This document shows positions 30,452 through 50,364 of a stretch of 64,000 nucleotides of DNA, piece by piece; within the stretch, counting starts at the first letter, position 1; each line of letters starts with the position of its first letter. Source of the stretch: Woeseiaceae bacterium (GTDB lineage: Bacteria > Pseudomonadota > Gammaproteobacteria > Steroidobacterales > Woeseiaceae); NCBI GenBank assembly GCA_041602775.1, contig JBFIFN010000002.1, forward strand, positions 64,200-128,199, read 5' to 3'. The notes under the pieces are model-generated. The model had not been told where the DNA came from, did no database searches, and saw nothing but the letters and a program-made list of their open reading frames with translations. The translations under genes were made by a program, and so were the position numbers.

Positions 30452-31543
30452 TCAGACGTCGATGCGAACCTGCCCATTGCGGACGAACGGCGTCTTGACG
30501 ATGCGCGCGTTCAGCAACTTGCCCCTGACATCGACCTGGACGCGGTCGTAGTCGCCGGCCGGCACCCGTGCAAGCGCAATCGAGCGGCCGATCGTCGGCG
30601 AAAAACCGCCGCTCGTGATTTCACCCTCGCCGACGCCGTCGACAACGACTTTCATATGGTTGCGCAGGACGCCCTTGTCTTCCAGCAAGAGACCGACGAA
30701 GCGGCGCCGGTCGGTGCGTTCGCGCTGGGCCTCGAGCGATGCCCGGCCGACGAAATCGCGCTCCGCTGGCTCCCATGCGACGGTCCAGGCGAGGCCCGCC
30801 TCGAGCGGCGAAATCGTCTCGTCCATGTCCGTCCCGTAGAGGTTCATGGCCGCCTCGAGGCGCAACGTGTCGCGTGCGCCGAGCCCGCAAGGCGCGACGC
30901 CGGCCGCCAGCAGGCGATCCCACGTAGCCGGTGCGTCGGCGGCCGGCAGGACGATTTCCCAGCCGTCCTCGCCCGTGTAGCCCGTGCGCGCGACGAACCA
31001 GCCGCCCGCAAACATGCCGGTGAACGGCTTGAGCGCGATGGCCGCGTCACGATACGCGGCGTCGATGCAGGGCGCCGCCAGTTCCCGCGCCGCAGGACCC
31101 TGTACGGCGATCATCGCGAGATCGGCGCGTTCGGTCACCTTCACGCCGAACGCCCCGCTTTGCCCGCGGATCCACGCGAGGTCTTTTTCGCGGGTCGCCG
31201 CGTTGACGACGAGGCGGTAGTCGGTGTCGCCGACGAAATAGATGATCAGGTCGTCGATGACGCCGCCATCCTCGTTGAGCATGCACGTATACAGCGCCTT
31301 GCCGTGGCTCTCGAGTTTGGCAACATCGTTGGCGACGAGGTGCTGCAGGAAGTCGCGCACGCGCTCGCCCGACAGATCGACTATGGTCATGTGGGACACG
31401 TCGAACACGCCCGCGCGCTCACGCACGGCGAAGTGCTCTTCCTTTTGCGACCCGTAGTGCAGCGGCATGTCCCAGCCGCCGAAATCGACGATGCGCGCGC
31501 CGGCTTCGACGTGCTTGTCGTATAGCGGAGTTTTCGAACCCAT
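30452..31543 (-). CDS. gcvT: Aminomethyltransferase (glycine cleavage T protein)
   Basis: The internal ATG (complement of 31541-31543) gives [32 protein letters not shown].. The longer 31807 start would run through the riboswitch. Confidence 0.94.
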
Positions 31544-31563
31544 AAATGCGGACCTGGTTAACC

Positions 31564-31596
31564 AAAAAAAGGCGGCAGGCACGAGCGCCTGCCGCC
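31564..31596 (-). terminator. Intrinsic terminator forming the expression platform of the glycine riboswitch
   Basis: The minus strand reads GGCGGCAGGC-GCTCGT-GCCTGCCGCC followed by TTTTTTT, about 20 nt upstream of the gcvT ATG. Confidence 0.8.
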
Positions 31597-31785
31597 CCTC
31601 TGTCCCTTGGTACCTGAGAGATGAGCAGCGCGTGCCTGGAGCGACGGCCGCTTTCCCCTTCGGTGGGCCTCGCGGCCTCTCTCCAGAGCTGATCAGCGTA
31701 CACGGTCCCTTTGCCTGAGCGTTTCCGAGCGAGTTGCGCCTTCGGCGCCCCGATTGAACGGGGTCTCTTCCAGGCACGCTATAGA
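31597..31785 (-). promoter_or_regulatory. Tandem glycine riboswitch (two aptamers)
   Basis: The minus strand carries two aptamers. Aptamer 1: CTGGAAGAG..CGCCGAAGGCGCAA..CTCAGGCAAAGGGAC. Aptamer 2: CTCTGGAGAG..CACCGAAGGGGAAA..CTCAGGTACCAAGGGACAGAG. Both match the conserved glycine-aptamer cores, in the leader of gcvT. Confidence 0.88.
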
Positions 31786-31875
31786 TCAGTGGCGTCATGA
31801 TAGCCAATGCCCCTGCCGGTTGCCAGCCGCGGGCCGGCTGGCGACAATGCCGCCACGACGGATCAGGGAGTTGGA

Positions 31876-33618
31876 ATGAAAACGACGGGAATTGCTTTCA
31901 CTTTGCTGTTGCTGGGCGCGACGGGGTTCGCGCGGGCGGACGCCGGCGAGGCGTTCCACGCACTGCTCGAGGAGCACTGGGAATGGCGCCTCAAGAGCGC
32001 CCCGCTCATGGCATCGATGATGGGTGACCGACGCTACAACCGCGAGTGGACCGATTCCGGCGTCGCCGCGATCGAGCAGCGCCACCGCGACACGCGCGAA
32101 TTCCTGCGGCGCGCCTATGCCATCGACCGGGACGCCCTGTCCACGGAAGACCAGCTCAATCATGAGCTGTTCCGGCGCCTGCTGCAGGACAACGTCGACG
32201 AGTTCCAGTTCAACGGCCATCTCCTGCCCTTCGGGCAACGCGGTGGCGTACAGAATCTCGACAACATTACCGACCGGCTGCGCCTCGTCACGGTCGCGGA
32301 CTTCGACGACTGGCTGGCACGCCTCGGCAAGATCGACGACGTCATCGACCAGACAATCGCGCTCGCCGAGCGCGGCCGCAAAACCGGAATGATGCCGCCG
32401 CGTATTATCATGGAGCGCCTGCCCGACCAGATCGCGGCCCAGATCGTCGAGTCGCCGGCCGACAGCCCGTTCTTCAAGCCGTTCGCGAATCTGCCCGAGG
32501 ACTTCACCGCAGCCGATCGCGAGCGGCTGCGCGCCGCGGCGATCGACGTCATCGAGAAGACGGTTCTGCCGGCCTACCGCAAGCTCGGTCGCTATTTCGA
32601 TGATGACTACTTGCCGCATGCGCGGGAGAGCATCGGCCTGTCCTCGCTGCCCAACGGCGCCGCGTGGTACGAATTTCGCGCGCGCTCGTACACGACGACC
32701 CGCATGACCCCCGACGAAATTCACCGCATCGGCCTCGACGAGGTCAAGCGCATTCGCGGCGAGATGATGACGATCATCGAGGAGGTCGGCTTCGGCGGCA
32801 CGTTTGGCGAGTTCCTGGAGCACCTGCGCACCGATCCGCAGTTCTACTTCGACGACCCGGAGGAGCTCTACCGCGAGTATCTCGCAACGAGCAAGCGCAT
32901 CGATCCCGAACTCGTCAAACTGTTTGGCAAGCTACCGCGCATGCCTTACGGCGTGAAGCCGATTCCCGAAGCGATCGCGCCGGACACGACCACGGCTTAC
33001 TACTCGCGCCCGGCCGCCGACGGCAGCCGCGCCGGCATCTACTACGTGAACCTGTACAAGCCCGAGGTCCGGCCGAAATACGAGATCGAGGTTCTCAGCG
33101 TGCACGAGGCCATGCCGGGCCATCACCTTCAGATCGCGCTGCAGCAGGAACTCGGGGACGTACCGATGTTCCGTCGATTCATGGGCTTCACGGCTTTCGT
33201 CGAGGGCTGGGGGCTCTACAGCGAGCGCCTCGGCTACGACCTCGGACTTTACGAGGATCCGTATTCACGCTTCGGGCAGCTGACGTACGACATGTGGCGA
33301 GCCGTGCGGCTCGTGGTCGACACCGGTATGCACTACAAGGGCTGGACACGCCAGCAGGCCATCGACTTTTTCAAGGACAACGCGGCCAAGACCGAACACG
33401 ACATCGTCAACGAGATCGACCGCTACATCCTGTGGCCCGGACAGGCGCTCGCGTACAAGATCGGGCAACTCAAGATCCTGCAGCTGCGCGGCCGCGCCGA
33501 AGTGCAACTCGGCCCGCGCTTCGATATCCGCGCCTTCCACGACGAACTGCTCGGCGCCGGCGCCTTGCCGCTCGACCTGCTCGAGCAGCGCATGGACCGC
33601 TGGATGGCGAAGCAATAA
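31876..33618 (+). CDS. DUF885-family secreted protein (putative zincin-like metalloprotein)
   Basis: ATG at 31876 with GGGAG upstream. Signal peptide [31 protein letters not shown] motif and overall DUF885-like sequence. Confidence 0.8.
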
Positions 33619-33667
33619 ACGATGCAGACCCGCGGGCTGCGTGCCCGCTGCCCGCGGCGACGCGCAG

Positions 33668-36600
33668 CTAGTCGGCCGACCAGTCCGGGATTCGACCCGG
33701 TGTCCAGGGTGCGCCCTTCAGTTCGAGGGCGTTCTCGAGCGCCTCGATGTCGGCCGCGAGGGTGCGCAGCGCTTGCAGCGCCACGGTAAATTCCTGCGCG
33801 GCAACGCCGTAAGATCCCCGGATATTGCCACCTGCGGGCGACTGCGAGTAAACCAGCGTCCAGTACAGGCTCTGTACGCGCGAGGCGATGGGCATCGGTA
33901 CCGGTTCGTTACGACCGGCGACCGTGGCGTCGCCGTGCAGTGCCACGCTGATGTCGGCAAGGCGCGTGGTCAACTGGTGCAGAACGTCGCGCTCGGCATC
34001 GCCGGCCGTTGGCGTGACGACGAGGGCCGCACGCACGTGTTGCAAGCGGTTGTCGAGCTCGGTCATGGCGTTGCCCGCGCCGGCGACGGCCCGCTGCAGG
34101 TTGGCCACCTTTATCTGGAAGTCCTGCAGCGCCTTGCGGTCCGGCGTAATTTCCGGGCTTCCGTCCAGCGCCTTCACGGTGAAGGTCTGCGCGTCGCCGG
34201 TCTCCGCCAGGACACCGTTGCGCATGACGGCGAGCCGGGCGGTATAGGTGCCGGGAATCACGAGCGGCCCTGCCGGGTCGGGCAACCAGTATGGCCGATC
34301 TTCGGGTGGCGCGATGCTGACGGGATCGGGTGGCGGCAATCGCAGGTCCCACGCGCTGCGATGCAGGCCCGCGCCGGCTTCGCCGGGGACCTGCCTGACC
34401 AGCTCGCCGGCGGCGTCGCGGATCATGATGTAGAGCGCGGGGGCCACTTCGCGGTCCTCGGCGCGCAACGCGCCCCACGACGGGTACGGCGTGTCGCCTC
34501 CTTCTTTCTCGATCTCGTTCTCCGCCGCGCGACGCTCGGCCTTGCGGGATTTGAGTCCGTCCCTCAGGTAGTACGTGAACACCGCGCCGAACGGCGGGTT
34601 CGGTGCCGCGAAGAACTCGTGCCCGAGCGACCCTTTTTCCTGCCCGCCCCACAGGTCCCCCTCGATGTACAGCCACGGGTCGCGCGGATCGAACAGTTCG
34701 AATTCGCCAAGCGCGGCCGCTTTCGTTCGCAGCGGCGTGTAATCGTCGAGGATGTAAATGCCGCGACCGAAGGTGCCCACGACGAGGTCGTTCTCGCGGG
34801 CCTGGATCTCGACGTCACGCACCGCGATCGTCGGGAAGTTGCTCTTCAATCGGCTCCACGAGAGGCCGCCGTCCTGCGTGACGAACAGGCCGAACTCGGT
34901 ACCGACAAACAGCAGGTTCGGATCGACGTGATCCTCGACGATCGTATGCGCCGAGCCTCGCACCGGGAGGTCGCTCGCGATCGACCGCCACTTGCGGCCC
35001 CGGTCTTCCGACCTCAGCACGTAGGGCTTGTAGTCGCCGCGCTTGTGATTGTCGATCACCATGTAGACGACGTCGGCGTCGTGTTGCGACGCGAGGACGT
35101 CCTCGATGAGCGACATGTCGGGGACGTTCGCAAATTTCGTCGTGCGCCGCCACGTGGCGCCGCCGTCCTCGGTCACATTGAGGACGCCATCATCGGTGCC
35201 CACGTAAATGAGGCCTTCCTGCAGCGTGCTCTCGCTCAGACCGATGGCGCTGCCGTAGATCGACGTCGAGTCGTTCTTTGCAATCGTATCGACGCCCCAG
35301 ACGCGCCCCATGACATCGAGCTTGTTGCGGTCGAGTTGCCGCGTGAGGTCCGGGCTGACCTTGCGCCAGCTGTCACCGCGATCGTCCGACCGAAACAGGT
35401 ACTCGGCCGCGTAATACAGCCGCCTCGAATCGTGCGGGCTGACGATGAGTGGTGTGTTCCAGTTCCACTTGTAATTGTTCTCGCCGCTCTCGGGATGCGG
35501 CGCGATGTAGACGCGCTCCTGCGTGCTGCGATCGTAACGCGCGAGCCCACCGTACTGGTACTGGGCGTACACGATATTCGGGTCGTTCGGGTCGAACTGC
35601 GGCTCGTAGCCGTCGCCGCCGAGAATCAGGTTCCAGTCCGAATTCGTGATGCCGTGGATGTTCGTCGTGCGCGACGGTGCACACAACGAATTGTTGTCCT
35701 GCGTACCGCCGCAGACATTGTAGAAGGGTTGCACGTAGTCGGGCTGGATGCGATAGAACTGGGTAATCGACAGGTTCGGCACCATGCGCCAGGTGCTGCC
35801 GCGGTCCCAGGACTCGTAGACGCCGCCATCGCCGCCAATGTAGAGGTGCGCGGTGTTTTCGGGGTCGATCCACAACGCGTGGTCGTCGACGTGGCGCCAC
35901 TCGTTCGAGAGCGGCGCGAACGTAACGCCGCCGTCTTCCGACTTCATCGTGAAGGTGTTCAGCGCGTACAGGCGTTCCGCGTTCTGCGGATCGACGACGA
36001 TCTCGTTGTAGTACTGCGGGCTCGTCGTCATGTACGAGGAACGCTTCTCCCAGTTGCTGCCAAAATCGATGGAGCGGTACACGCCCTTCTCGTCATCGTT
36101 CGCTTCGATGATGGCGTAGATGACGTCCGGCTTGCTGGGCGCGCCGGCCAGGCCGATGCGGCCCATGTGGTCGGTGGGCAGGCCTGCCGTGACCCTGGTC
36201 CAGGTCTTGCCGCGGTCGGTCGACCTGTGGATGCCGCTGCCCGGGCCGCCGTTGATCAGCACCCAGACGTGCCGCCGCCGCTGGTAGCTCGAAGCGACGA
36301 TGATGTCGGGATTGCGCGGATCCACGACGAACTCGTTGACCCCGGTGTGCGCGTCGATATCGAGAATGCGCGTCCAGTTGTCGCCGCCGTCCGTCGTGCG
36401 GTACAGGCCGCGATCGCCCCCGTCGCTCCACAAGGGTCCCTGCGCCGCGACGAGGACTTCGTCCGAGTCCTCCGGGTTGATCCAGATCTGGCTGATGTGG
36501 CCGGAGTCCTGCAGGCCGACTTTCTTCCAGGACTTGCCGCCGTCGATCGACTTGTACACGCCATCGCCGTACGCCACGCTGCGCTGCGCATTATTCTCGC

Positions 36601-36934
36601 CCGTGCCGACCCAGATCGTCTTGCTGTCGTTCGGATCGATTTCGACGACGCCGATCGCGTACGAGCCTTCGTTGTCGAACAGCGGTTCCCACGTCGTGCC
36701 GCCGTTGGTCGTGCGAAACAGGTTGCCGGACGCGACGCCAACGAGGAATGCGTGATCCCCGCCTGGGTAGAACGCGAAGTCGGAAATGCGTCCCGAGGTG
36801 ATGGCCGGCCCGATGTGCCGTAGCGGCAACGCGGCCAGCGGGTTGCCGTTCTCGTCGTCTTCGGCGGCCCCCGCCGTCGCGGCAAGCGCCAGTGCCAACA
36901 GCACGATGGCTGGCGAGCGAACTGATCGAATCAT
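33668..36934 (-). CDS. Secreted BNR/Asp-box repeat protein, sortilin/VPS10-like double propeller (1088 aa)
   Basis: Signal peptide. Eleven Asp-box-like motifs: TTNGGTTW, SIDGGKSW, TTDGGDNW, STDRGKTW, SIDFGSNW, SEDGGVTF, SWDRGSTW, SDDRGDSW, TEDGGATW, SEDRGRKW, TQDGGLSW. Its ATG overlaps the stop of the upstream ATP-grasp gene (ATGA). Confidence 0.85.
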   Translation of the reverse strand: MIRSVRSPAIVLLALALAATAGAAEDDENGNPLAALPLRHIGPAITSGRISDFAFYPGGDHAFLVGVASGNLFRTTNGGTTWEPLFDNEGSYAIGVVEIDPNDSKTIWVGTGENNAQRSVAYGDGVYKSIDGGKSWKKVGLQDSGHISQIWINPEDSDEVLVAAQGPLWSDGGDRGLYRTTDGGDNWTRILDIDAHTGVNEFVVDPRNPDIIVASSYQRRRHVWVLINGGPGSGIHRSTDRGKTWTRVTAGLPTDHMGRIGLAGAPSKPDVIYAIIEANDDEKGVYRSIDFGSNWEKRSSYMTTSPQYYNEIVVDPQNAERLYALNTFTMKSEDGGVTFAPLSNEWRHVDDHALWIDPENTAHLYIGGDGGVYESWDRGSTWRMVPNLSITQFYRIQPDYVQPFYNVCGGTQDNNSLCAPSRTTNIHGITNSDWNLILGGDGYEPQFDPNDPNIVYAQYQYGGLARYDRSTQERVYIAPHPESGENNYKWNWNTPLIVSPHDSRRLYYAAEYLFRSDDRGDSWRKVSPDLTRQLDRNKLDVMGRVWGVDTIAKNDSTSIYGSAIGLSESTLQEGLIYVGTDDGVLNVTEDGGATWRRTTKFANVPDMSLIEDVLASQHDADVVYMVIDNHKRGDYKPYVLRSEDRGRKWRSIASDLPVRGSAHTIVEDHVDPNLLFVGTEFGLFVTQDGGLSWSRLKSNFPTIAVRDVEIQARENDLVVGTFGRGIYILDDYTPLRTKAAALGEFELFDPRDPWLYIEGDLWGGQEKGSLGHEFFAAPNPPFGAVFTYYLRDGLKSRKAERRAAENEIEKEGGDTPYPSWGALRAEDREVAPALYIMIRDAAGELVRQVPGEAGAGLHRSAWDLRLPPPDPVSIAPPEDRPYWLPDPAGPLVIPGTYTARLAVMRNGVLAETGDAQTFTVKALDGSPEITPDRKALQDFQIKVANLQRAVAGAGNAMTELDNRLQHVRAALVVTPTAGDAERDVLHQLTTRLADISVALHGDATVAGRNEPVPMPIASRVQSLYWTLVYSQSPAGGNIRGSYGVAAQEFTVALQALRTLAADIEALENALELKGAPWTPGRIPDWSAD

Positions 36935-37896
36935 GAGTCTCCCCGTTGGGTTGAGAATTCCCGCCGCGAGGCGGCGGCCCTTGCTTCCGGCGATGCGGAA
37001 GGATCGAAAATGTCATCAATACGCGTGATGCGGCCAGCGAGTCCGATGCCGTTCGCAATCTGGATATTGAGCCCCGGTCGTGCATTCATCTCGAGAATCA
37101 GCGGTCCGTACTGGCGATCAATGACCATGTCCACGCCGAGGTACCCGAGTTCGGTGACCTCGTAGCCGCGGGCTGACGTCTCGAGAATCGACGGCCAGTG
37201 CGGGATCTGCAGGCCGGCAATCAATGCCCCCGTGTCCGGGTGCTCGTCCACGATCTTGTTGTCGAGTACGCCGTTTTGCGTCAGCCCGGCTGCCATGTCG
37301 ATACCGGCGCCGACGGCGCCCTGGTGGAGGTTGGCCTTACCGTCGGACGCGCGTGTCGGCAGGCGGACCATCGCCATGGCGGGATAGCCGCGGTACACGA
37401 TGACGCGCACATCGGGCACGCCCTGGAAGCTGACCTCGGAGAACACCGGGTCGAATTGCACGCAATACTCGATAAGCGCCTTGTCTCGACCCCCACTGAG
37501 ACTGAACTGGCCGCTGATGATGTTCGAGATGTGGTGCTCGATCTCCTCCTCGCTGACGAGCGCGCCACTGGCCAGGCGAAACGAGTCTCGCTTGCGCTTG
37601 CTGCGGCTCGTGACCACGACGATGCCGTCACCGCCGCTGCCCTGTGCGGGCTTCACCACGAAACTCTCGCGGTCTTCGACAATGCTCGGAAAGTCGCGAA
37701 CCTGCCCCTGGTGCTCGATCAGGCCGTACAGCTCCGGAACGGCCATGCCGGCCTCGAGCGCGAGTTTCTTGGTCAGCGCCTTGTCATCCACGCGCGGATA
37801 GAAACGGCGCGGATTGAGCCGCATGATGTAGTCGGCGTTGCGCTCGTTGAGGCCCAGAAGGCCGATGTTACGCAGCTTGCGAGCCGTGCTCTGCAT
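36931..37896 (-). CDS. Alpha-L-glutamate ligase-like (RimK-related) ATP-grasp protein
   Basis: The internal ATG (complement of 37894-37896) gives MQSTARKLRNIGLLGLNERNADYIMRLNPRRFYPRVDDK.. ATP-grasp motifs FVVKPAQGSGGDGIVVV and GVDMVIDRQYGPLILEMNARPGL. The longer 38352 start overlaps the upstream gene. Confidence 0.85.
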   Translation of the reverse strand: MQSTARKLRNIGLLGLNERNADYIMRLNPRRFYPRVDDKALTKKLALEAGMAVPELYGLIEHQGQVRDFPSIVEDRESFVVKPAQGSGGDGIVVVTSRSKRKRDSFRLASGALVSEEEIEHHISNIISGQFSLSGGRDKALIEYCVQFDPVFSEVSFQGVPDVRVIVYRGYPAMAMVRLPTRASDGKANLHQGAVGAGIDMAAGLTQNGVLDNKIVDEHPDTGALIAGLQIPHWPSILETSARGYEVTELGYLGVDMVIDRQYGPLILEMNARPGLNIQIANGIGLAGRITRIDDIFDPSASPEARAAASRREFSTQRGDS

Positions 37897-37898
37897 CC

Positions 37899-39416
37899 TT
37901 ACTTCACCAAGGGCGCGAACCGCCTGAGTTCGGTCAGGCGATAGCCGGTATAACGCCCGGCCAGCAGAACGAGCGCGAGTATCACGAGCAAGAGCTCGGG
38001 AAACGTGAATACCAGGTGATTCAGCCAGCCCATGCCCATCGCAAGATAAGCGAATATGGCGACGACCATGCTCCCGACGCCCGCGCGAATGGCGTCGGCC
38101 GCGCCGCGCTCTTCCCAAACGACCGACATGCGCTCGATGGTCATCGCGATGATGACCATCGGGAACAGCGCAACCGACAGGCCGGTCTCGAGACCGAGCC
38201 GGTGTGAAATCAGGCTGATGAACAACATGAGCAACACGACGACGATCAGGACCGCGCTGAGCCGCGGCACGAGCAGCAGTCGCAGGCGCTCCAGCAGGAA
38301 GCGAATCGTCAGGCCGGCCGCGATCAGCAGCGTAAAGAGGATGATGCCCCACAACAGCTTGGTCTCGCGAAACGCGAGCGCAATCAGCACGGGCATGAAC
38401 GTACCGAAAGCGTCGATGCCGACGATGTTGCGCATCACGACCATGACGAGCGCGCCGATGGGGATCATGAGAAGTACCGCGTACACGGCCTGTGTCTGTA
38501 TTGGCAGCCCGTACAGCGAGAAATCGAAGGCGCTGCCTTCGGTCGCAGCGGCCTGGGTTTCGGCAATGGCGATAGCGTCGAGGTAATTCTCCTGCACGGC
38601 GAAATCAACCTGGACGTTGCTGCCGCCCTGGACGCTGACGAGGGGTTCGCTGCCGCGCCACCACACGAAGAAGCGGTCGGGCAGGTTCTGCTCACCCGTC
38701 GCCGGGTTGAAGAACAGCCATCGGTCTCCGTCGTGCACTTCGAGCCACGGCGTCAGTTCCGCGTGGCGCTGGCGCCCGGACAGTGCGAAGCCCTGCACGA
38801 CGCGTGCGGGAATCCTGGCCGCGGCCAGAATCATCGTGGCGGTACCGACGAATTCGGCCCGCGTACCGACCTCCGAGAGCAATAGCTCGACATTGGGATC
38901 CGGCGACGGGTCGTTGAGGCGACGTAACAGCTCCGTCGTGAAAGACGCCGTGTCGGCAGAACGGTCGCGAACGTCAGAGACCAGGACGTCCACAGCGGTG
39001 TTCAGCGGTTCGTCGATGACGGGGCGCGGCGGGAACGGTGGCACGGTGTCGGACTGGTCGACCCTGTCGTCCTCGTAAACCGAGATGCGGTAGTAGATCG
39101 TCTGCGGTCCGTCGGCGCGGCGGATCGTCCACTGTGCCTCGCGGCCACCGCTGCCGTAGTTGATGCTGAACCCGTAGCCGCGCGATACCGAATTCTCGTT
39201 GAGCATCCGGAATCCGGGTGTCAGCGTCGGGATATGCAACTGCACCTTGATCGTCCCGGGCCCGCTGTCGAACTGGATCGACGACTCGATGGTCCAGACC
39301 GGCTGTTCCTGGTCCTCGGTCAGCGGAAACCCGAGGGCTTGCCATTTGTAGGTAAAGATGGACAGACCAACGGCAGTCATCAACGCGGCAAGCACGTAGA
39401 CATATCTCTGCTTCAT
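37899..39416 (-). CDS. Inactive-transglutaminase-like domain fused to a 7-TM module
   Basis: N-terminal anchor, a ~270-aa soluble domain, then seven hydrophobic helices in the C-terminal half. This is the usual genomic partner of the RimK-like ligase above. The stop lies 2 nt before the ligase ATG. Confidence 0.78.
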   Translation of the reverse strand: MKQRYVYVLAALMTAVGLSIFTYKWQALGFPLTEDQEQPVWTIESSIQFDSGPGTIKVQLHIPTLTPGFRMLNENSVSRGYGFSINYGSGGREAQWTIRRADGPQTIYYRISVYEDDRVDQSDTVPPFPPRPVIDEPLNTAVDVLVSDVRDRSADTASFTTELLRRLNDPSPDPNVELLLSEVGTRAEFVGTATMILAAARIPARVVQGFALSGRQRHAELTPWLEVHDGDRWLFFNPATGEQNLPDRFFVWWRGSEPLVSVQGGSNVQVDFAVQENYLDAIAIAETQAAATEGSAFDFSLYGLPIQTQAVYAVLLMIPIGALVMVVMRNIVGIDAFGTFMPVLIALAFRETKLLWGIILFTLLIAAGLTIRFLLERLRLLLVPRLSAVLIVVVLLMLFISLISHRLGLETGLSVALFPMVIIAMTIERMSVVWEERGAADAIRAGVGSMVVAIFAYLAMGMGWLNHLVFTFPELLLVILALVLLAGRYTGYRLTELRRFAPLVK

Positions 39417-39434: not shown

Positions 39435-40637
39435 TCAGTCAACGCCCAGCGCTACCTTGACGGCACGTTCTTTTATAGGGCCGCTGCGATTGAACATGCG
39501 CATACCGGCCGCTCTTAGTTCTGCAATGATACGGGAGTCTGTCGCAAACAGACGGTTCAAGCCAGTCATAAAGTGCAGCATTGTCGCATTTGCGCCCTTG
39601 CGCGCCCGCTCGTAGCGGCGCAGGACCGGGCGATCGCCCGGGTGCAGCCCGGCGGCGATGGCGTCGGAGACCTGCCTTGCAAGTTCGGCCGCGTCCTGCA
39701 AGCCGAGATTCGCGCCCTGGCCCGCCAGCGGATGGATGGCGTGGGCCGCATCGCCGATGAGCGCAAGATTCGGCAGTACGTAATTGGCCGCGTGGCGCGC
39801 GCACAGCGGAAATGCCCCCTTCGGCCCCGCCGGGACGAGGTCGCCGAGGACGTGGTCCGATGCTTCGCTCAGCATGCGGCCGGTTGCCGCGTCATCGGCC
39901 TCGAGCGCTGCGCGCGCCTTCTCCGGCGTCGTCGACCACACGACAGACACGCGTCCGTCCTCGAGCGGCAGGATGCCCAGCGGGCCCTCGCGCAGGAAGC
40001 GCTGCCGCGCCGTCGCGCGATGCGGCTGTTCAGGTCGCAGGTGGGTCACGAACGCAGTCTGCTCATAGGGCCATTCGTGCGTCCCGATGCCCGCCGCCGA
40101 GCGCACGAATGAGCGAGCGCCGTCGGCGGCGACAACGAGATCTGCCGTCAGCGTCTCGTCGGTCTGCAGGTCGATCTTGTACTGCTCGTCGACACGTCTC
40201 AGGGCCTGCAGGGGACTGTCGAAACGCAGTTTCACGGCACTCGCATCGAGCTGCCGCAAAAGCGCGTCCTGGAGCAGGACGTTCTCGACGATGAAGCCCA
40301 GCTGCGGCACCGCGAACTCTTCGGCGTCGAAACGCAGGGTTGCGGGCCCGTCGGGCGACGCGTCCTCGTCCCACACGCGCATGCGCTCGTACGCACTGGC
40401 GCGCGTCGCAACGACGGACTGCCAGGCGTCAGCCTGGTCGAGCAGCGCGGCCGTGCCGTTCGCTATCGCCGAGACGCGCAGGTCGACGTCGTTCTCCGGG
40501 TGAAAATGCGGGCGCGGGGCCGCGTCCACGAGCGTGATGTCGAGACTCTCTCCGTGCTCGGTTTTCGCCAGCAGCGTCGCCGCCAGCAGGCCGGTGACAC
40601 CGCCGCCGACGACCACGATGTCGTAGCGCCTGTTCAC
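39435..40637 (-). CDS. ubiI: FAD-dependent ubiquinone-biosynthesis hydroxylase (UbiI/VisC type)
   Basis: Motifs VVVGGGVTG and IGDAAHAIHPLAGQGANLG. E. coli-like ygfB-pepP-ubiH-visC order. Confidence 0.8.
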   Translation of the reverse strand: MNRRYDIVVVGGGVTGLLAATLLAKTEHGESLDITLVDAAPRPHFHPENDVDLRVSAIANGTAALLDQADAWQSVVATRASAYERMRVWDEDASPDGPATLRFDAEEFAVPQLGFIVENVLLQDALLRQLDASAVKLRFDSPLQALRRVDEQYKIDLQTDETLTADLVVAADGARSFVRSAAGIGTHEWPYEQTAFVTHLRPEQPHRATARQRFLREGPLGILPLEDGRVSVVWSTTPEKARAALEADDAATGRMLSEASDHVLGDLVPAGPKGAFPLCARHAANYVLPNLALIGDAAHAIHPLAGQGANLGLQDAAELARQVSDAIAAGLHPGDRPVLRRYERARKGANATMLHFMTGLNRLFATDSRIIAELRAAGMRMFNRSGPIKERAVKVALGVD

Positions 40638-41902
40638 TTGACGGGCACTCCGCGTGACAGCCGCGGCAATCGGCCGGCGAGCCCCATCGTGTGTTTCGCG
40701 AACAGGGTCCGGACACCCGGCACGAGGTCGAAGCCGAGCATGCCGATGTTGCGCAGTGCGCGCAGCGGCGGCCGTTCGCTGCCGAACAGCCTCACGAGAC
40801 CGTCAGTGAAGCGCACGAGCTTTTTCTGATCGGCGCGACGCCACTCCGCGTAACGCTCCAGCAAGTCCGTCGGATCGAGGACGGGGCCGGAGCACGATTC
40901 CATACCCGAAGCAGCGCTCCGACCCCCATTGGCGGTCTCATCGGCGATGCAGTCGACGATCGCGGCGACGTCGCGCATGCCGAGATTGAAGCCCTGTGCA
41001 GACACGGGGTGTAATCCATGGGCGGCGTTGCCGATGAGTACGCTGCGCGTGGCCGTGAGTCGCAGCGCCCGCGTCAGTGCCAGGGGGTACGCGGCACGTT
41101 TGCCGACGCGCGAGAAAGTGCCGAGACGGTGACCGAATTCGCGCTGCAGCTCCCCGAGGAATGCCACATCGTCGAGCGCCATCACGCGATCGGCGTCGTC
41201 CTCTGACACCGTCCACACGAAACCGGCGCGTCCGTCGGCGACGGGCAGAATCGCGAGGGGGCCTTGCGGCGTAAAGCGCTCGTATGCCACGTTGTTCAGG
41301 GGCTTTTCCGGCAACAGGTTGCCGATCACGGCCCTCTGTCCATAGTCTTTCCGTTCCGCCGTGATGCCCATCATCGAACGCACCGACGACTGCGCGCCGT
41401 CCGCAGCGACGAGCAGGGCACAGTCGAGCTGCTCGCGCTTGTCGTTGCCGAGCTCGATCGTGGCCGTCGCAAGCTCCGTGCCCAGCTCGACCTCCGCGAT
41501 ACGCGCCGGGCAAAAAACCTCGACGCCGTCGACGCGCTCGAGCGCCGTTTGCAATACCTCGCCCAGGACCCGATTGATGACGACGTAGCCAAGCGCTTCG
41601 ACGCCCTGCTCCTCTGCATCGATGTGCGAGAACCCGAAGCGGCCCTGGTCCGATACATGGATGGCGCGTATCGGTGTCGACGCCTCGGCAACTTCGGCCC
41701 ACAGCCCCATGGCCTCGAACATGCGCTGCGTACTCCGCGACAAGGCAGTGGACCGGTCGTCGAAACTGGGTTGCGTCGTGGCCTTGCGGGCTACGGCCTC
41801 GACGACCGCTACACGCAGCCCGAGCGGCGCCAGTGCCAGCGCCAGGCTCGTGCCGATCATGCCGCCACCGGCAATTAGAACGTCGTACTGCCGTTTGTTC
41901 AT
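40634..41902 (-). CDS. ubiH: 2-octaprenyl-6-methoxyphenol hydroxylase
   Basis: Motifs LIAGGGMIG and IGNAAHGLHPVSAQGFNLG. 4-nt overlaps with both neighbours. Confidence 0.85.
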   Translation of the reverse strand: MNKRQYDVLIAGGGMIGTSLALALAPLGLRVAVVEAVARKATTQPSFDDRSTALSRSTQRMFEAMGLWAEVAEASTPIRAIHVSDQGRFGFSHIDAEEQGVEALGYVVINRVLGEVLQTALERVDGVEVFCPARIAEVELGTELATATIELGNDKREQLDCALLVAADGAQSSVRSMMGITAERKDYGQRAVIGNLLPEKPLNNVAYERFTPQGPLAILPVADGRAGFVWTVSEDDADRVMALDDVAFLGELQREFGHRLGTFSRVGKRAAYPLALTRALRLTATRSVLIGNAAHGLHPVSAQGFNLGMRDVAAIVDCIADETANGGRSAASGMESCSGPVLDPTDLLERYAEWRRADQKKLVRFTDGLVRLFGSERPPLRALRNIGMLGFDLVPGVRTLFAKHTMGLAGRLPRLSRGVPVK

Positions 41903-43203
41903 GCGCTGTCCATCAGTGCCTCGATATCGTCCGGATCCCGGGCGAGCCCCTTGCTCAGTATGTCCGGTCCCTTGCTGGTCACGGCTACGTCATCTTCGAT
42001 ACGCACACCGATATTGCGGAATGCCTTCGGTATCTTGCGGAGGTTCGGCAGGTAGATGCCGGGCTCCACGGTCATGACCATGCCCGTCTCCAGCACACGC
42101 CACTCGTCGCCGACCTTGTAGTCGCCGACGTCGTGCACGTCCATGCCGAGCCAGTGGCCCGTGCGGTGCATATAGTACTCCCGGTACGCGCCCTCGCGGA
42201 TGAGTTTTGCCGGCGCACCGTCGAGAAGTCCGAGCTTTTTCAGTCCCCTGGTGATGATGCGTACCGCGGCATCGTGCGGGTCGTTCCAGTGATTCCCCTT
42301 GACGGCCTTCGCGATGGCCGCGGTCTGCGCCTCGAGAACGATCTCGTACACGGCACGCTGCTCCGGGCTGAAGCGCCCATTCACCGGGAAGGTGCGCGAG
42401 ATGTCCGAGGCGTAGTAGTCGAGTTCGCAACCGGCGTCGATCAGCAGCAGGTCGCCGTCCTTGAGCTCGGCGTTGTTGTCCACGTAGTGCAGCGTGCAGG
42501 CATTGGAGCCACCGCCGACGATCGGGTTGTACGACGCCCACGCACCATGGCGCCGGAATTCGTGGCGAAACTCGGCCTCGACCTCGTATTCGTAAAGTCC
42601 GGGCCGCGTCATCCTCATGGCGCGCTGGTGGGCGGCAACGGCAATTCTCGCCGACTTGCGCATGGCCGAAATCTCGGCACGGCTCTTGTAGAGGCGCATG
42701 TCGTGCAACAGGTGATCGAGGGCGACGAATTCCTGCGGCGTATGCAGGCCGCGCGACGAACCCGACCGCAGGGAATTCAACCAGTCGGCAATATGGGCAT
42801 CGAAGTCCGTGTACATGCCCATCGTGTAATACACGCGACTGCAACCCTCGATGAGTCCGGGAATGATGTCGTCGATATCGTCGATCGGGAACGCGTCGTC
42901 GGCGCCGAAACGATCTACGGCCCCCTCCTGCCCGGCGCGGGACCCGTCCCACAGCTCCTTGTCGCGGTTGCGCTCGCGGCAGAACAGCAGGTACTCGCCC
43001 TGCGGCCTGCCGGGCACGATTACGGCGACCGACTCCGGTTCGGTAAACCCCGTCAGGTAATAAAAGTCGCTGTCCTGGCGGTACCGGTACTCGACGTCGC
43101 GACTGCGATTGCGCACCGGCGCGGCCGGCAGGATTGCAATACCGCCGGCCCCGACCATGCGCATCAGCTGTCTGCGTCGGCGTTCGAATTCTGTTGATTT
43201 CAT
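41899..43203 (-). CDS. pepP: Xaa-Pro aminopeptidase
   Basis: Metal-ligand contexts DGDLLLIDAG, HRTGHWLGMDVHD, EPGIY and IRIEDD. Confidence 0.93.
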   Translation of the reverse strand: MKSTEFERRRRQLMRMVGAGGIAILPAAPVRNRSRDVEYRYRQDSDFYYLTGFTEPESVAVIVPGRPQGEYLLFCRERNRDKELWDGSRAGQEGAVDRFGADDAFPIDDIDDIIPGLIEGCSRVYYTMGMYTDFDAHIADWLNSLRSGSSRGLHTPQEFVALDHLLHDMRLYKSRAEISAMRKSARIAVAAHQRAMRMTRPGLYEYEVEAEFRHEFRRHGAWASYNPIVGGGSNACTLHYVDNNAELKDGDLLLIDAGCELDYYASDISRTFPVNGRFSPEQRAVYEIVLEAQTAAIAKAVKGNHWNDPHDAAVRIITRGLKKLGLLDGAPAKLIREGAYREYYMHRTGHWLGMDVHDVGDYKVGDEWRVLETGMVMTVEPGIYLPNLRKIPKAFRNIGVRIEDDVAVTSKGPDILSKGLARDPDDIEALMDSA

Positions 43204-43763
43204 TGGTCTTCTGCGTGCCGAATCTCGGCGAGTTCCTCGTAGGCGAGCTGCGCGGCCACGCGCATGTATTCGACGATCTCAGCATACGCTGCTTCGTTGG
43301 TTTCAGTATCGCTTTCCTCGTCCACCGCGGCACGCGTGATCTGCAGCATGTCACCGATGATATCGGCGAGCGGTTCGGCCGCAAGACGCTCCTTCAGTGC
43401 CGCCTCGTGCCTGGCGGAGACGAGCCCGTGCAGGAATCCTTCGCACCAGTGTGCCATCGCCCGGGTGCGCTGCCTGGCGCCCTCGGCGTCATCGGGCAGC
43501 AGGGGAGAAAAGTCGGACAGACGCTCCGACAATTGCCAATAGGTGCCCTGGTACAGCGCGTCAAGCTTCTTGCGGCACTCGAGCTGCAGGGCATCGTCGT
43601 CGTTTGTACCTTCGAGCACCTGCAACAGCCAGTCCGGCCCTGCCGGAACGCCGGCCACGGCGAGGCGGCCGGTCAGCAGTCCATGTGCCTGCGCGGCGTC
43701 CCAGCTCGCGCCGCAGCGCCGTAACGCCTCATCGACGTCGTCGAAGGCGACTTTTTCATCCAT
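43200..43763 (-). CDS. ygfB: UPF0149/YgfB family protein
   Basis: 187-aa acidic protein with family-typical ..AHGLLTG.. and ..HWCEGFLHG.. Lies upstream of pepP. Confidence 0.85.
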   Translation of the reverse strand: MDEKVAFDDVDEALRRCGASWDAAQAHGLLTGRLAVAGVPAGPDWLLQVLEGTNDDDALQLECRKKLDALYQGTYWQLSERLSDFSPLLPDDAEGARQRTRAMAHWCEGFLHGLVSARHEAALKERLAAEPLADIIGDMLQITRAAVDEESDTETNEAAYAEIVEYMRVAAQLAYEELAEIRHAEDQ

Positions 43764-43813
43764 TCAATTGCCCATGCTTTTCAATTTCGCGAAACCCTAC
43801 TATATTTGCCCGT

Positions 43814-44044
43814 ATGGCTGAGAACATCAATGCGACCTTCGAGCACGAATTAAAGCGCCTCGAGAAACGCGTGGACGCCCTGGTTCGCGTGTGCGACCAG
43901 TTGCAGGATGAGAATCGTTCCCTCAAGCAACGGCAGGATGCGCTAACCTCGGAGCGCGCGAGCCTGCTGCAGAAGAACGAGCAGGTGCGCGCCCGGGTCG
44001 AAGCCATGATCGGTCGCCTCAAGGCGATGGAACAGGGCTCCTGA
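43814..44044 (+). CDS. Small coiled-coil protein (ZapB-like/TIGR02449-type) preceding zapA
   Basis: The ATG at 43814 gives a 76-aa heptad-rich product (..LEKRVDALVRVCDQLQDENRSLKQRQDALTSERASLLQKNEQVRARVEAMIGRLK..). The long 43397 start overlaps ygfB antisense and is rejected. Confidence 0.75.
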   Translation: MAENINATFEHELKRLEKRVDALVRVCDQLQDENRSLKQRQDALTSERASLLQKNEQVRARVEAMIGRLKAMEQGS

Positions 44045-44088
44045 CGGTAGCCCGGATGTAACCCGACCAGGCAAACGGAGAAGGCCGT

Positions 44089-44403
44089 ATGAGTCAACAA
44101 ATTGCGCAGGTGAGCGTCCGCATTCTCGACAAGGAATACCAGGTTGCCTGCCCAGCCGGCGAACGAACCGACCTTCTCGACTCCGCGGAAGTCCTCAATG
44201 CGAAGATGCGCGAAATCCGCGATTCGGGGCGCATCGTCGGCCTGGACCGCATTGCCGTCATGGCGGCGCTCAACATGGCGAATGACCTGATTCACGCCAA
44301 GGCGCGTGACCAGCAGCTCGAAGGCGACATCAGCGCACGACTCAAGTCTATTTCTGACCGGGTGGACAGCGTTCTCAGCAGCACGCAAGCCCTCGACTTG
44401 TAA
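44089..44403 (+). CDS. zapA: Cell division protein ZapA
   Basis: 104 aa. Motifs VSVRILDKEYQVACPAGE and IAVMAALNMANDL. Confidence 0.9.
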   Translation: MSQQIAQVSVRILDKEYQVACPAGERTDLLDSAEVLNAKMREIRDSGRIVGLDRIAVMAALNMANDLIHAKARDQQLEGDISARLKSISDRVDSVLSSTQALDL

Positions 44404-44427: not shown

Positions 44428-44625
44428 CATTGGCGCTTCCTGCGGTGTTCGATACCGACCTGGATACCTTTCGACCCTAAATCATTACCTCGGGGTCGTG
44501 TTCTGTCGGCAGCATTTGAGCAGGGCCGTTTCGACGGTAAGCCTGTTGCGGCCACGGCTGACCCCACCTGTTGCTCTGGTTCGAGAGCGACGGCTCGGTA
44601 ACGGCACAGGCGGGAAGCGCCTCCT
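44428..44625 (+). ncRNA. ssrS: 6S RNA (candidate)
   Basis: Canonical zapA-ssrS-ygfA position. A ~190-nt non-coding segment whose ends form a 12-bp closing stem (GGCGCTTCCTGC at 44432-44443 pairs with GCGGGAAGCGCC at 44610-44621). Further imperfect pairing follows (TACCGA/TCGGTA, GGGGTC/GACCCC), giving a long interrupted duplex. Confidence 0.6.
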
Positions 44626-44642
44626 TCCCCGGCAACCGCTGC

Positions 44643-45206
44643 ATGGTTGAGTCGATCCGTTCGCAGCGCGAGTACGCCCTCAGCGCCCGTCGCAACATGA
44701 CCGCCGGAGCGCGTGCGCGGGCTTCCGAAATTATCTGCGATCGCGTTTGCTCGACCCGCGCCTGGTATGCGAGCGACTCACTGGCGTGCTTCCTGCCCAT
44801 GCAGGACGAGGTCGATACACGAGAAATCATCGAAAGAAGTTGGCGCGCAAACAAGCGCGTTTTCGTCCCGGTTTTGCGCGCCAGTGCCGAAATGGCGTTT
44901 TGCGAGATGGCGCCCGACACGGAACTCGAACGCAACCAGTTCGGAATCTGGGAGCCCGTGCGCGGCTTCTTGATCAATGCGCGACTTCTCGATTTGGTCG
45001 TGACGCCGACGGTCGCTTACGACAGCTCTTGCAATCGTATCGGCATGGGGAGCGGCTACTACGATCGTTGTTTTGCCCATCTTCGCTATCGCCGCCATTG
45101 GGTTCGGCCGAAACTGATAGGCGTAGCGTTCCAATGTCAGGAAGTCGAGAAAATCGAGCCAAATCCTTGGGATATACGGCTTTATCGGGTTATTTCAGAC
45201 GCGTGA
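44643..45206 (+). CDS. ygfA: 5-formyltetrahydrofolate cyclo-ligase
   Basis: ATG at 44643. Motifs VFVPVL and GMGSGYYDR. Synteny downstream of zapA/6S RNA. Confidence 0.88.
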   Translation: MVESIRSQREYALSARRNMTAGARARASEIICDRVCSTRAWYASDSLACFLPMQDEVDTREIIERSWRANKRVFVPVLRASAEMAFCEMAPDTELERNQFGIWEPVRGFLINARLLDLVVTPTVAYDSSCNRIGMGSGYYDRCFAHLRYRRHWVRPKLIGVAFQCQEVEKIEPNPWDIRLYRVISDA

Positions 45207-49356: not shown

Positions 49357-49679
49357 GGGCCTTTAGAGCTTGCGAGCTGGTGCGAGTTCCTCCGGCGACA
49401 GCCTGGATTAGCTTGAATGGCTCGTAATGGCTATTGCAGCGGCTGGACAATCAGCGAGGGGTGACGCAACGATCTTGGATAATCGTTTTGCGCGATTCGG
49501 GAGGACCGGAAATGTACAGATTCATCGTTGCCCGCCTGCGCACCTGAGAGGTCGGGTTTAGATAGTGTTGGGGCCGATCGGCCGCTTTATGTCTCGACGT
49601 CGCCAGTCGCCGAAATTGAGGTAACATTTCTGTTTCAGACCCTTTCCAGTCATCCGCTTTCTTGACGAGTTCGAACTCT

Positions 49680-50303: not shown

Positions 50304-50306
50304 CTA

Positions 50307-50364
50307 CTTCTGGCCGCGAGGCGACGTTCGCTGCGCCTGAGCTATAATTTCTGCTTCTGACCCA
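50307..50364 (+). repeat. 58-nt direct repeat, copy A
   Basis: CTTCTGGCCG-N24-GCTATAATTTCTGCTTCTGACCCA, starting 4 nt after the CDF stop. Confidence 0.85.

What the first reader, a model, noticed from the sequence alone, without database searches (positions are those of the whole stretch)
33668..39416. 7TM pseudo-transglutaminase + RimK-like ATP-grasp ligase translationally coupled to a 1088-aa secreted BNR/sortilin-like protein; the usual retropepsin partner is missing
Seen, on the minus strand:
- A 505-aa protein with an N-terminal soluble domain and 7 TM helices.
- 2 nt later, a 321-aa ATP-grasp with FVVKPAQGSGGDG and ILEMNARPG motifs.
- An ATGA overlap into a signal-peptide-bearing 1088-aa protein with eleven Asp-box motifs.
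Established: the 7TM inactive-transglutaminase and alpha-L-glutamate-ligase-like pair is a computationally described, experimentally uncharacterised peptide-ligase system. It is typically accompanied by a RimB-like retropepsin/Zn-protease gene.
Inference: no protease gene is present here. Instead, a giant periplasmic or extracellular double-propeller protein is coupled to the ligase. It may be a target, a sensor partner or a functional substitute. This suggests an envelope-linked peptide-tagging or signalling system.
Basis: partly seen in the sequence, partly recalled or inferred. Interest (0 to 1): 0.7.

Follow-up and report, generated by a model that had tools for sequence, protein, structure and literature searches.

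The report
RloBC envelope module, passenger propeller gene
The membrane protein and ligase are relatives of the Pseudomonas RloB/RloC envelope-stress pair that have lost their neighbouring protease gene across a whole bacterial clade, and the giant propeller gene behind them is a recent, lineage-limited insertion, not a conserved partner.

Summary
On the minus strand lie a 505-aa inactive-transglutaminase/7TM protein, a 321-aa TIGR02291 ATP-grasp 2 nt later, and a signal-peptide 1088-aa protein with 11 Asp boxes joined by an ATGA overlap. No retropepsin is detectable anywhere in the 64 kb.

The interpretation needs two corrections.

1. The pair is no longer uncharacterised. It is homologous to P. 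aeruginosa RloB/RloC (Lormand 2025), whose partner RloA is a secreted retropepsin that cleaves polyglutamate.

2. The propeller gene is not a conserved partner.
- It follows rloC in 13 of 49 informative metagenome loci, all in the window's own subclade.
- It follows rloC in 2 of 80 species genomes.
- Its orthologues (66-79% identity) lie in unrelated places in 6 of 8 contexts sampled.
- The slot between rloC and a convergent DUF885 gene is variable: usually empty, and in one sister clade filled by rimB-astE-rimK.

The real novelty is smaller. In a monophyletic Woeseiaceae/Steroidobacter clade (35 species genomes), rloBC has no adjacent rloA (0/35, against 38/45 in the other genomes). There it is appended to the ygfB-pepP-ubiH-ubiI operon. 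Whether an unlinked protease exists could not be tested.

The parts
43200..43763 (-). ygfB (UPF0149), first gene of the conserved backbone operon
   Evidence: PF03695, 97 bits. Same position in 60+ related loci.
41899..43203 (-). pepP (Xaa-Pro aminopeptidase, M24)
   Evidence: PF05195 and PF00557. Overlaps ygfB and ubiH by 4 nt each.
40634..41902 (-). ubiH (2-octaprenyl-6-methoxyphenol hydroxylase)
   Evidence: NF004356 scores 443 bits against a cutoff of 384; TIGR01984 scores 406 bits.
39435..40637 (-). ubiI/visC-like UbiH/UbiF-family hydroxylase
   Evidence: TIGR01988 scores 395 bits. Its stop lies 18 nt before the rloB start. The median gap is 19 nt in 79 related loci.
37899..39416 (-). rloB-like gene: N-terminal anchor helix, periplasmic inactive transglutaminase-like domain and a C-terminal 7TM block
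   Evidence: PF14400 scores 170 bits and PF14402 scores 344 bits. NF052267 'RloB' scores 504 bits, below its 900-bit exception cutoff. The AF2 model has pLDDT 89; its soluble part matches 3ISR at E = 1e-9, and its 7TM part has no PDB neighbour. dN/dS is about 0.09.
36931..37896 (-). rloC-like gene: cytoplasmic ATP-grasp, alpha-L-glutamate ligase-like
   Evidence: TIGR02291 scores 426 bits against a cutoff of 314; PF14397 scores 292 bits. The closest solved structure is RimK, but only weakly at 25 bits. A 2-nt spacer after rloB is kept in 71 of 72 related loci.
33668..36934 (-). Secreted 1088-aa Asp-box protein: two beta-propellers (about residues 35-760), a beta-sandwich (about 780-920) and a helical bundle (about 930-1075). 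Lineage-specific insert.
   Evidence: Eleven Asp boxes. PF15902 and BNR families. The AF2 model has pLDDT 75, and its best PDB matches are GH74 two-propeller xyloglucanases (E = 1e-24, TM about 0.5, 15-16% identity), while sortilin reaches only TM 0.22. Present in this slot only in the window's subclade.
33619..33667 (.). 49-nt convergent intergenic spacer with a GC-rich inverted repeat (CCCGCGGGC...GCCCGCGG); a possible bidirectional terminator
   Evidence: Read from the sequence. The terminator scan did not list it because no T-run follows.
31807..33618 (+). Convergent DUF885 gene marking the far edge of the variable slot
   Evidence: PF05960, 613 bits. It abuts rloC directly in 26 related loci.

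Best explanation
**What it is.** Genes 1 and 2 are the Woeseiaceae versions of the RloB/RloC envelope module.
- RloC is a cytoplasmic ATP-grasp of the RimK-related alpha-L-glutamate-ligase-like family. It most likely builds an oligo- or polyglutamate chain on a still unknown acceptor (inferred).
- RloB is an inner-membrane protein with a catalytically dead transglutaminase-like domain in the periplasm and a 7TM block. It most likely couples that product to the envelope, by binding, presenting or passing it across the membrane (inferred).

**What is different here.** In the common ancestor of a Woeseiaceae/Steroidobacter clade the pair was separated from its secreted retropepsin gene rloA. It was attached to the 3' end of the housekeeping ygfB-pepP-ubiH-ubiI operon. 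It is now probably co-transcribed with that operon (shown by gene order and spacing, not by RNA data).

**The propeller gene.** The 1088-aa gene encodes a secreted GH74-like double beta-propeller protein. It belongs to a large, highly conserved marine family that normally stands alone. It landed in the variable slot between rloC and the convergent DUF885 gene only in the window's subclade. There it became packed against rloC. It is co-expressed by position, not by a demonstrable shared function.
For: - **Family scores.**
- **Experimental background.** The genetics of rloABC and RloA cleavage of stretches of 8 or more Glu come from PMC11957051.
- **Backbone synteny.** ygfB-pepP-ubiH-ubiI-rloB-rloC followed by convergent DUF885 is seen in about 80 metagenome loci and 35 species genomes.
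- **Gene spacing.** The median ubiI-to-rloB gap is 19 nt. The rloB-to-rloC gap is 2 nt.
- **Protease linkage.** A retropepsin is adjacent in 0/35 genomes of this clade and in 38/45 of the other genomes. The clade is monophyletic in the RloB tree.
- **Propeller gene distribution.**
  - It follows rloC in 13 loci that form one clade, with secondary losses.
  - 26 loci have an empty slot and 10 carry other content.
  - It is adjacent in 2/80 species genomes.
  - Its orthologues lie elsewhere in L002-L005, L167 and L168.
- **Same slot, different cargo.** A sister clade carries rimB-astE-rimK-marR there.
- **Selection.** All three genes are under purifying selection, with dN/dS about 0.1.
- **Fold.** The propeller model matches GH74 two-propeller enzymes.
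Against: - Within the propeller-positive subclade, packing against rloC is maintained. Six loci keep the ATGA overlap, four have a 5-nt gap, and only one has a 59-nt gap. The adjacency has survived synonymous divergence above 1. Some selective value of co-expression therefore cannot be excluded.
- No RNA data show the transcript structure.
- The biochemical activity of RloC and the role of RloB are unknown even in Pseudomonas.
- The P. aeruginosa genetics suggest that RloBC activity without RloA is harmful in low osmolarity. A protease-less module thus needs either an unlinked protease or a different physiology, and I could test neither.
Confidence: 0.72

Rival explanations
1. The propeller protein is a true functional partner of RloBC in this lineage. 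It could be a substrate tagged by RloC before export, a periplasmic ligand or sensor docking on the RloB transglutaminase-like domain, or a replacement for RloA in handling the product.
For: - Translational coupling by an ATGA overlap or a 5-nt gap occurs in 10 of 13 positive loci.
- The adjacency is retained over dS > 1.
- Both the propeller protein and the RloB soluble domain are predicted to be periplasmic or extracellular.
Against: - The adjacency is limited to one subclade and was lost at least twice inside it.
- It occurs in 2/80 species genomes.
- 6 of 8 orthologue contexts are unrelated, two of them beside TonB-dependent receptors.
- 26 protease-less loci have no propeller gene, so it cannot be the general substitute.
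- The last residues of the protein are not conserved, and there is no acidic C-terminal acceptor like the Glu-Glu end of RpsF (consensus).
- The fold is glycoside-hydrolase-like, not protease-like.
Confidence: 0.1
2. The module works as in Pseudomonas, because a secreted RloA-type or RimB-type retropepsin is encoded elsewhere in the genome. P. aeruginosa has unlinked rloA2 and rloA3. Only the gene linkage has been lost.
For: - P. aeruginosa has two unlinked, redundant rloA paralogues.
- PF05618 RimB-like genes are abundant in Woeseiaceae-type metagenomes.
- In one MAG (GCA_041601995.1), rimB (L170) and rloBC (L094) sit on different contigs.
- In a sister clade, rimB lies directly after rloC.
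Against: - All Woeseiaceae retropepsins seen here lack a signal peptide and sit with rimK. They are the cytoplasmic RimB type, which is not interchangeable with RloA in P. aeruginosa.
- No retropepsin lies within 8-10 kb of rloBC in any of 35 clade genomes, nor in the 64-kb window.
- The search that could have placed a RimB on the closest complete genome was saturated by closer hits, so it was uninformative.
Confidence: 0.5
3. The module works with no retropepsin at all in this clade. The RloBC product is the functional end point, and trimming by RloA is dispensable in permanently saline sediment habitats.
For: - Linkage was lost across the whole clade, yet rloB and rloC remain under strong purifying selection.
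- In P. aeruginosa the harm from lacking RloA shows under hypo-osmotic stress. The marine-sediment sources of the related contigs suggest such stress is rare for these organisms (contig sources; inference).
Against: - No whole-genome absence has been shown.
- The P. aeruginosa protease-null mutant also has shape, biofilm and antibiotic defects without any stress.
Confidence: 0.3

Closest known systems
P. aeruginosa rloABC operon (RloA secreted retropepsin, RloB 7TM inactive transglutaminase, RloC ATP-grasp; Lormand et al. 2025, PMC11957051)
   Same: - RloB has the same two-domain architecture, with full-length matches to PF14400 and PF14402.
- RloC belongs to the same TIGR02291 family.
- The order is rloB then rloC, with a 2-4 nt spacing.
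- RloB is 44% identical to that of Stutzerimonas, which has the canonical three-gene operon.
   Different: - There is no rloA upstream; ubiI takes that place.
- The pair is appended to ygfB-pepP-ubiH-ubiI.
- The RloB score of 504 bits is far below the NCBIfam exception cutoff of 900, so this is a distant family member and not the named protein.
- An extra secreted propeller gene follows rloC.
RimK/RimB system (ribosomal protein S6 polyglutamylation and trimming)
   Same: It pairs an ATP-grasp of the RimK-related superfamily with a PF05618 retropepsin. A true rimB-astE-rimK cluster occupies the same genomic slot in a sister clade.
   Different: - RloC matches the RimK models only weakly: TIGR00768 at 44 bits against a cutoff of 143, and PDB RimK at 25 bits.
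- It has a membrane partner.
- No rimB or rimK is present in the window.
GH74 xyloglucanases / oligoxyloglucan cellobiohydrolase (two tandem 7-bladed Asp-box propellers)
   Same: These are the best structural matches to the 1088-aa protein over about 800 aligned columns (E = 1e-24, TM about 0.5). They share Asp-box repeats and are secreted.
   Different: - Identity is only 15-16% and rmsd is about 9 A.
- The catalytic Asp pair was not checked.
- There is an extra beta-sandwich plus helical-bundle C-terminal region of about 300 aa.
- NCBI annotates relatives only generically as 'glycosyl hydrolase' or 'WD40/YVTN/BNR-like'.
Sortilin / Vps10 domain
   Same: PF15902 matches above its cutoff in four stretches.
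   Different: The fold match to sortilin's 10-bladed propeller is poor (TM 0.22). The Pfam match reflects shared Asp-box blades, not the Vps10 architecture.

Membership tests
7TM inactive transglutaminase (RloB family, PF14400 + PF14402) | N-terminal Transglut_i_TM domain followed by a 7TM_transglut domain, both full length | tested here: met
   PF14400 scores 170 bits (profile positions 1-160 of 161). PF14402 scores 344 bits (positions 2-247 of 248). The AF2 model shows an anchor helix, a beta/alpha soluble domain and a helical membrane block.
7TM inactive transglutaminase (RloB family, PF14400 + PF14402) | Transglutaminase catalytic Cys-His-Asp triad not intact | tested here: inconclusive
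   By eye, against the canonical PF01841 motif recalled from memory, the Cys, His and Asp positions read Ala (GTA), Thr (TPW) and Asn (FNP) in residues about 190-240 (print-out). No alignment to an active enzyme was computed.
NCBIfam NF052267 'osmotic stress tolerance membrane protein RloB' (exception-level model) | Score at or above the curated cutoff of 900 bits | tested here: not met
   504.5 bits. This is a homologue of the named Pseudomonas protein, not the same protein.
[quoted passage not shown] | Score above the curated cutoff, full-length match, and ATP-grasp glycine-rich loop and Mg-binding E-x-N motifs | tested here: met
   426 bits against a cutoff of 314, over positions 3-309 of 317. 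FVVKPAQGSGGDG and ILEMNARPG are present.
[quoted passage not shown] | Glutamate-ligating activity | not testable with these tools
   No biochemical assay has been reported, even for P. aeruginosa RloC.
rloABC operon | A signal-peptide retropepsin (PF05618) gene immediately upstream of rloB | tested here: not met
   ubiI lies upstream at 18 nt. No PF05618-like ORF occurs in the window. The count is 0/35 in the clade against 38/45 elsewhere.
rloABC operon | A retropepsin present somewhere in the genome | not testable with these tools
   Only 64 kb of this genome is available. The RimB search was saturated by hits of 79% identity or more from other contigs.
GH74 glycoside hydrolase | Two tandem seven-bladed Asp-box propellers forming a cleft | tested here: inconclusive
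   The fold search ranks GH74 first (E = 1e-24), but with TM about 0.5 and rmsd about 9 A on a model of pLDDT 75. Blades were not counted.
GH74 glycoside hydrolase | The catalytic pair of aspartates | not tested
   At 15-16% identity, no residue-level alignment was inspected.
Sortilin/Vps10 domain | A ten-bladed propeller followed by the 10CC module | tested here: not met
   PF15902 matches only as four partial stretches. The structural match to sortilin ectodomains is TM 0.22. The C-terminal region is a beta-sandwich plus helices.

The most novel reading that the evidence does not exclude
An entire order-level clade of marine and soil Gammaproteobacteria (Woeseiaceae, Steroidobacter and relatives) runs the RloBC module with no retropepsin at all. 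The module is hard-wired into the ygfB-pepP-ubiH-ubiI housekeeping operon. If so, the RloBC product, presumably an envelope-directed polyglutamate species, would be the functional output, and RloA only an accessory trimmer. The clade would then be a natural 'protease-null' background in which to identify that product.
Probability: 0.25. Interest if true: 0.55.

Novelty: new variant of a known kind. Interest (0 to 1): 0.3.

Why it matters
The substrate and product of RloBC are the open question left by the 2025 Pseudomonas work. Removing the proteases there is harmful unless RloB or RloC is also removed.

This clade keeps RloBC under strong selection, has shed the linked protease, and ties the pair to a housekeeping operon. 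That makes it a useful comparative handle. Either an unlinked protease will be found, which is ordinary, or the product is tolerated untrimmed, which would say something about what the product does.

The headline idea of the finding does not hold up, so it should not drive experiments. That idea was a giant propeller protein as a new partner of a peptide-tagging system.

Tried and rejected
1. **Propeller gene as a conserved partner: rejected.** The evidence is the neighbourhood counts and the orthologue contexts.
2. **Search for a retropepsin in the window: nothing found.** tblastn with Woeseiaceae RimB, AstE-like and RimK sequences gave no RimB or AstE hit. RimK matched only rloC, weakly. An iterated HMM over all ORFs of 80 aa or more also found nothing.
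3. **Attempt to show a RimB or RloA elsewhere in the closest complete genome (OZ245053.1, 3.70 Mb): uninformative.** I searched the big protein database with a Woeseiaceae RimB and looked for that contig length. The 120 listed hits were all at least 79% identical and came from other contigs.
4. **Other genes in the ubiI-to-rloB or pepP-to-rloB gaps of clade members.** I looked for a non-homologous protease there. I found only a diverged UbiH-like hydroxylase, or a 553-aa unrelated gene in Steroidobacter.
5. **Sortilin/Vps10 identity for the propeller protein: rejected on fold grounds**.
6. **Promoter and terminator scans: no weight given.** No minus-strand promoter-like site was found in 33-45 kb. 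Terminator-like sites numbered 12, against 7.1 +/- 3.0 expected by chance.
7. **The Iyer 2009 paper (PMC3268129) is not held in the library**.
Full report
**1. Observation**

The minus strand of 33668-39416 carries three tightly packed ORFs.

- *Gene 1 (39416..37899, 505 aa).* It matches PF14400 (170 bits) and PF14402 (344 bits) end to end.
- *Gene 2 (37896..36931, 321 aa).* It starts 2 nt after the stop of gene 1. [quoted passage not shown] Both quoted motifs are there.
- *Gene 3 (36934..33668, 1088 aa).* It starts in an ATGA overlap behind a GGGGAG Shine-Dalgarno sequence. It has a Sec-type signal peptide and exactly eleven Asp-box motifs. It matches PF15902 and BNR families.

No retropepsin-like ORF exists anywhere in the 64-kb window, by tblastn and by a purpose-built HMM.

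**2. What the pair is**

NCBIfam now holds a model called 'osmotic stress tolerance membrane protein RloB'. Gene 1 matches it over its full length at 504 bits, well below the 900-bit exception cutoff.

The name comes from Lormand et al. 2025 (PMC11957051). In P. aeruginosa:
- rloA encodes a secreted retropepsin.
- rloB encodes the 7TM inactive transglutaminase.
- rloC encodes the ATP-grasp.
- RloA cleaves runs of eight or more glutamates.
- Loss of all three RloA paralogues causes hypo-osmotic death, shape defects, biofilm defects and antibiotic sensitivity.
- These defects are suppressed by deleting rloB or rloC.

The pair is therefore no longer 'experimentally uncharacterised'. The ligase's product and the membrane protein's role are still unknown.

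The AF2 model of gene 1 is confident (pLDDT 89). Its soluble domain resembles a transglutaminase-like putative cysteine protease (3ISR, E = 1e-9). Its membrane block has no neighbour in the PDB. RimK is the nearest solved relative of gene 2, but only weakly at 25 bits.

**3. Surroundings**

Upstream on the same strand, with 4-nt overlaps or an 18-nt gap, lie ygfB, pepP, ubiH and a ubiI-like hydroxylase. Downstream is a convergent DUF885 gene, then a glycine riboswitch and the gcv genes. Names on close database relatives place the organism in the Woeseiaceae, which are marine-sediment Gammaproteobacteria.

**4. Is the propeller gene a conserved partner?**

*From the rloB side.* A metagenome scan gave 80 loci with RloB 72-85% identical to the window's. 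The backbone ygfB-pepP-ubiH-ubiI-rloB-rloC followed by convergent DUF885 is nearly universal. Of 49 loci informative for the slot after rloC:

| Slot content | Loci |
|---|---|
| Empty (rloC abuts DUF885) | 26 |
| Propeller gene | 13 |
| Other genes | 10 |

(All counts.)

On an RloB+RloC tree, the 13 propeller-positive loci form the single clade that contains the window. Inside that clade there are at least two secondary absences.

In one sister clade the slot holds rimB (153 aa, no signal peptide), an AstE/AspA-like gene, rimK, a small very acidic ORF and marR. One locus keeps only a deletion remnant of this cluster.

Among 80 species-representative genomes, found with a diverse RloB profile, only 2 have the propeller gene after rloC.

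*From the propeller side.* The protein has thousands of relatives. The top 120 are 66-100% identical. Of eight genomic contexts sampled:
- Two (83% and 79% identity) repeat the window's arrangement.
- Six (79%, 75%, 74%, 71%, 68% and 67% identity) are in unrelated neighbourhoods. Two of these lie beside TonB-dependent receptors, and one has a tandem paralogue.

*Conclusion.* The adjacency is a single, shallow, lineage-specific event in a variable slot.

Inside the positive clade the packing is kept. Six loci have the ATGA overlap, four have a 5-nt gap, and one each has -1, -11 and +59 nt. All three genes are under purifying selection, with dN/dS about 0.1 and dS about 1. Co-expression is therefore likely there, and some local benefit cannot be ruled out. 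There is no comparative support for a shared function.

**5. The missing protease**

I built a retropepsin HMM starting from the Woeseiaceae RimB sequences. It converged on 44 ORFs in the fetched loci, 39 of them beside rloB in non-clade genomes (38 of the 45 counted plus L163) and 5 rimB-type ORFs in metagenome loci.

| Group of species genomes | RloB identity to window | Retropepsin immediately upstream of rloB |
|---|---|---|
| Other genomes (Oceanococcus, Guyparkeria, Methylococcaceae, Thioalkalivibrio, Nitrosomonas, Nitrospirales, Stutzerimonas and others) | 44-51% | 38 of 45, each with a hydrophobic signal-peptide-like N-terminus |
| Window's clade (Woeseiaceae, Steroidobacter and related MAGs) | 54-85% | 0 of 35 |

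In the 35 clade genomes no retropepsin lies anywhere within 8 kb. There rloBC always follows ygfB-pepP, usually with ubiH-ubiI in between. These 35 form one clade in the RloB tree.

The loss of linkage is therefore old, clade-wide, and coincides with capture of rloBC by the housekeeping operon. It is not a peculiarity of this window, and the propeller gene has nothing to do with it. As far as I could find, this configuration is not described in the Pseudomonas paper.

Whether these genomes carry an unlinked secreted RloA remains open:
- P. aeruginosa has two unlinked paralogues.
- Woeseiaceae-type metagenomes are rich in PF05618 genes of the rimK-linked, signal-less type.
- My one remaining database search was saturated by close hits and could not place any on the closest complete genome.

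**6. What the propeller protein is**

The AF2 model (pLDDT 75) shows:
- beta-propeller sheets from about residue 35 to 760,
- a beta-sandwich at about 780-920,
- a long helical bundle at about 930-1075.

The best PDB matches are all GH74 xyloglucanases, which are two-propeller enzymes (E = 1e-24, TM about 0.5, 15-16% identity). Sortilin ectodomains score far lower (TM 0.22). By sequence, only fragments of BNR proteins match solved structures.

'Double propeller' is thus reasonable and 'sortilin-like' is not. A glycan-binding or glycan-cleaving role is the best guess for a secreted protein of this fold that sometimes sits beside TonB-dependent receptors. Catalytic residues were not checked.

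**7. Mechanism proposed**

*Shown:*
- family membership,
- topology, from the model and hydropathy,
- operon-like packing,
- clade-wide absence of a linked protease,
- lineage-limited presence of the propeller gene.

*Inferred from the Pseudomonas genetics and the RimK paradigm:*
- RloC ligates glutamates onto an acceptor in the cytoplasm.
- RloB links that product to the periplasmic side.
- In canonical systems RloA trims it.
- In this clade trimming is either done by an unlinked enzyme (about 0.5) or not done (about 0.3).
- The propeller protein acts independently (about 0.7-0.8), probably on a polysaccharide.

**8. Verdict**

- The pair is a new variant of a known system: protease-unlinked and fused to a housekeeping operon.
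- The propeller gene is a passenger.
- Interest is modest.

Noticed in passing
L058, L060, L067, L070, L171, L172 (e.g. L067:7760-11214); remnant in L051:11454-11906: In a sister Woeseiaceae clade, the slot that holds the propeller gene in the window carries rimB (PF05618, no signal peptide), an AstE/AspA-like gene, rimK, a small ORF and marR. All lie directly after rloC. L051 keeps only a fused rimB/rimK deletion remnant. The rlo and rim systems are physically adjacent there, which fits the published idea that rlo arose from rim.
   Followed up: partly
L067:10236-10478 (-); also L060, L051, and the 69-87-aa genes without a family hit in L169-L172: A conserved 70-87-aa ORF lies between rimK and marR. 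Its C-terminal half is extremely acidic and rich in D, E and Y (…DEDGDFDDLDGDYDEYDDDFEDYDDYDD…). It could be a RimK/RimB-related substrate or regulator.
   Followed up: no
L170 and L094 (both from MAG GCA_041601995.1): In this Woeseiaceae MAG the rimB-astE-rimK-marR-DUF885 block is preceded by ECF sigma, FecR and a TonB receptor, not by rloC. rloBC sits on another contig. Linkage of the two modules therefore varies even within the family.
   Followed up: no
window 44434-44620 (+): A 6S RNA (RF00013, 64 bits) lies between the zapB/zapA region and a 5-formyltetrahydrofolate cyclo-ligase gene (44571-45206). This is the classic zapA-ssrS-ygfA arrangement. The 210-aa minus-strand ORF at 43756-44388 has no family hit and is probably spurious.
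   Followed up: partly
window 31693-31782 (-): A glycine riboswitch aptamer (RF00504, 60 bits) lies directly upstream of gcvT (30452-31807), followed by gcvH, gcvP1, a redoxin gene and gcvP2.
   Followed up: partly
window 49400-51600: G+C drops to about 0.52, against about 0.64 elsewhere. There is no convincing ORF over about 2.2 kb. A 907-aa histidine kinase (51630-54353) follows. This may be foreign or regulatory DNA.
   Followed up: no
L003:8001-14606; L168:6001-12371: Stand-alone orthologues of the propeller protein lie next to TonB-dependent receptor genes in two of six unrelated contexts. In L003 one is followed by a tandem paralogue of 44% identity. This hints at a role in polymer capture or uptake.
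   Followed up: no
window 37899-38490 (RloB residues about 300-505): The 7TM block of the RloB family is modelled with high confidence but has no structural neighbour in the PDB (best E > 0.04). Its fold appears undescribed among solved structures.
   Followed up: partly
L001:13326-15799: The closest complete genome has MipA, Ysc84 and a 174-aa gene between the propeller gene and DUF885. The window has only a 49-nt spacer there. The slot keeps changing even among the nearest relatives.
   Followed up: no
L123, L138, L142, L154: In some genomes with canonical rloABC operons (Guyparkeria, Halothiobacillaceae, Methylococcales), pepP and ygfB lie within 4-8 kb of the rlo genes on the opposite strand. 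Proximity of the two loci may therefore predate their fusion into one operon in the Woeseiaceae/Steroidobacter clade.
   Followed up: no
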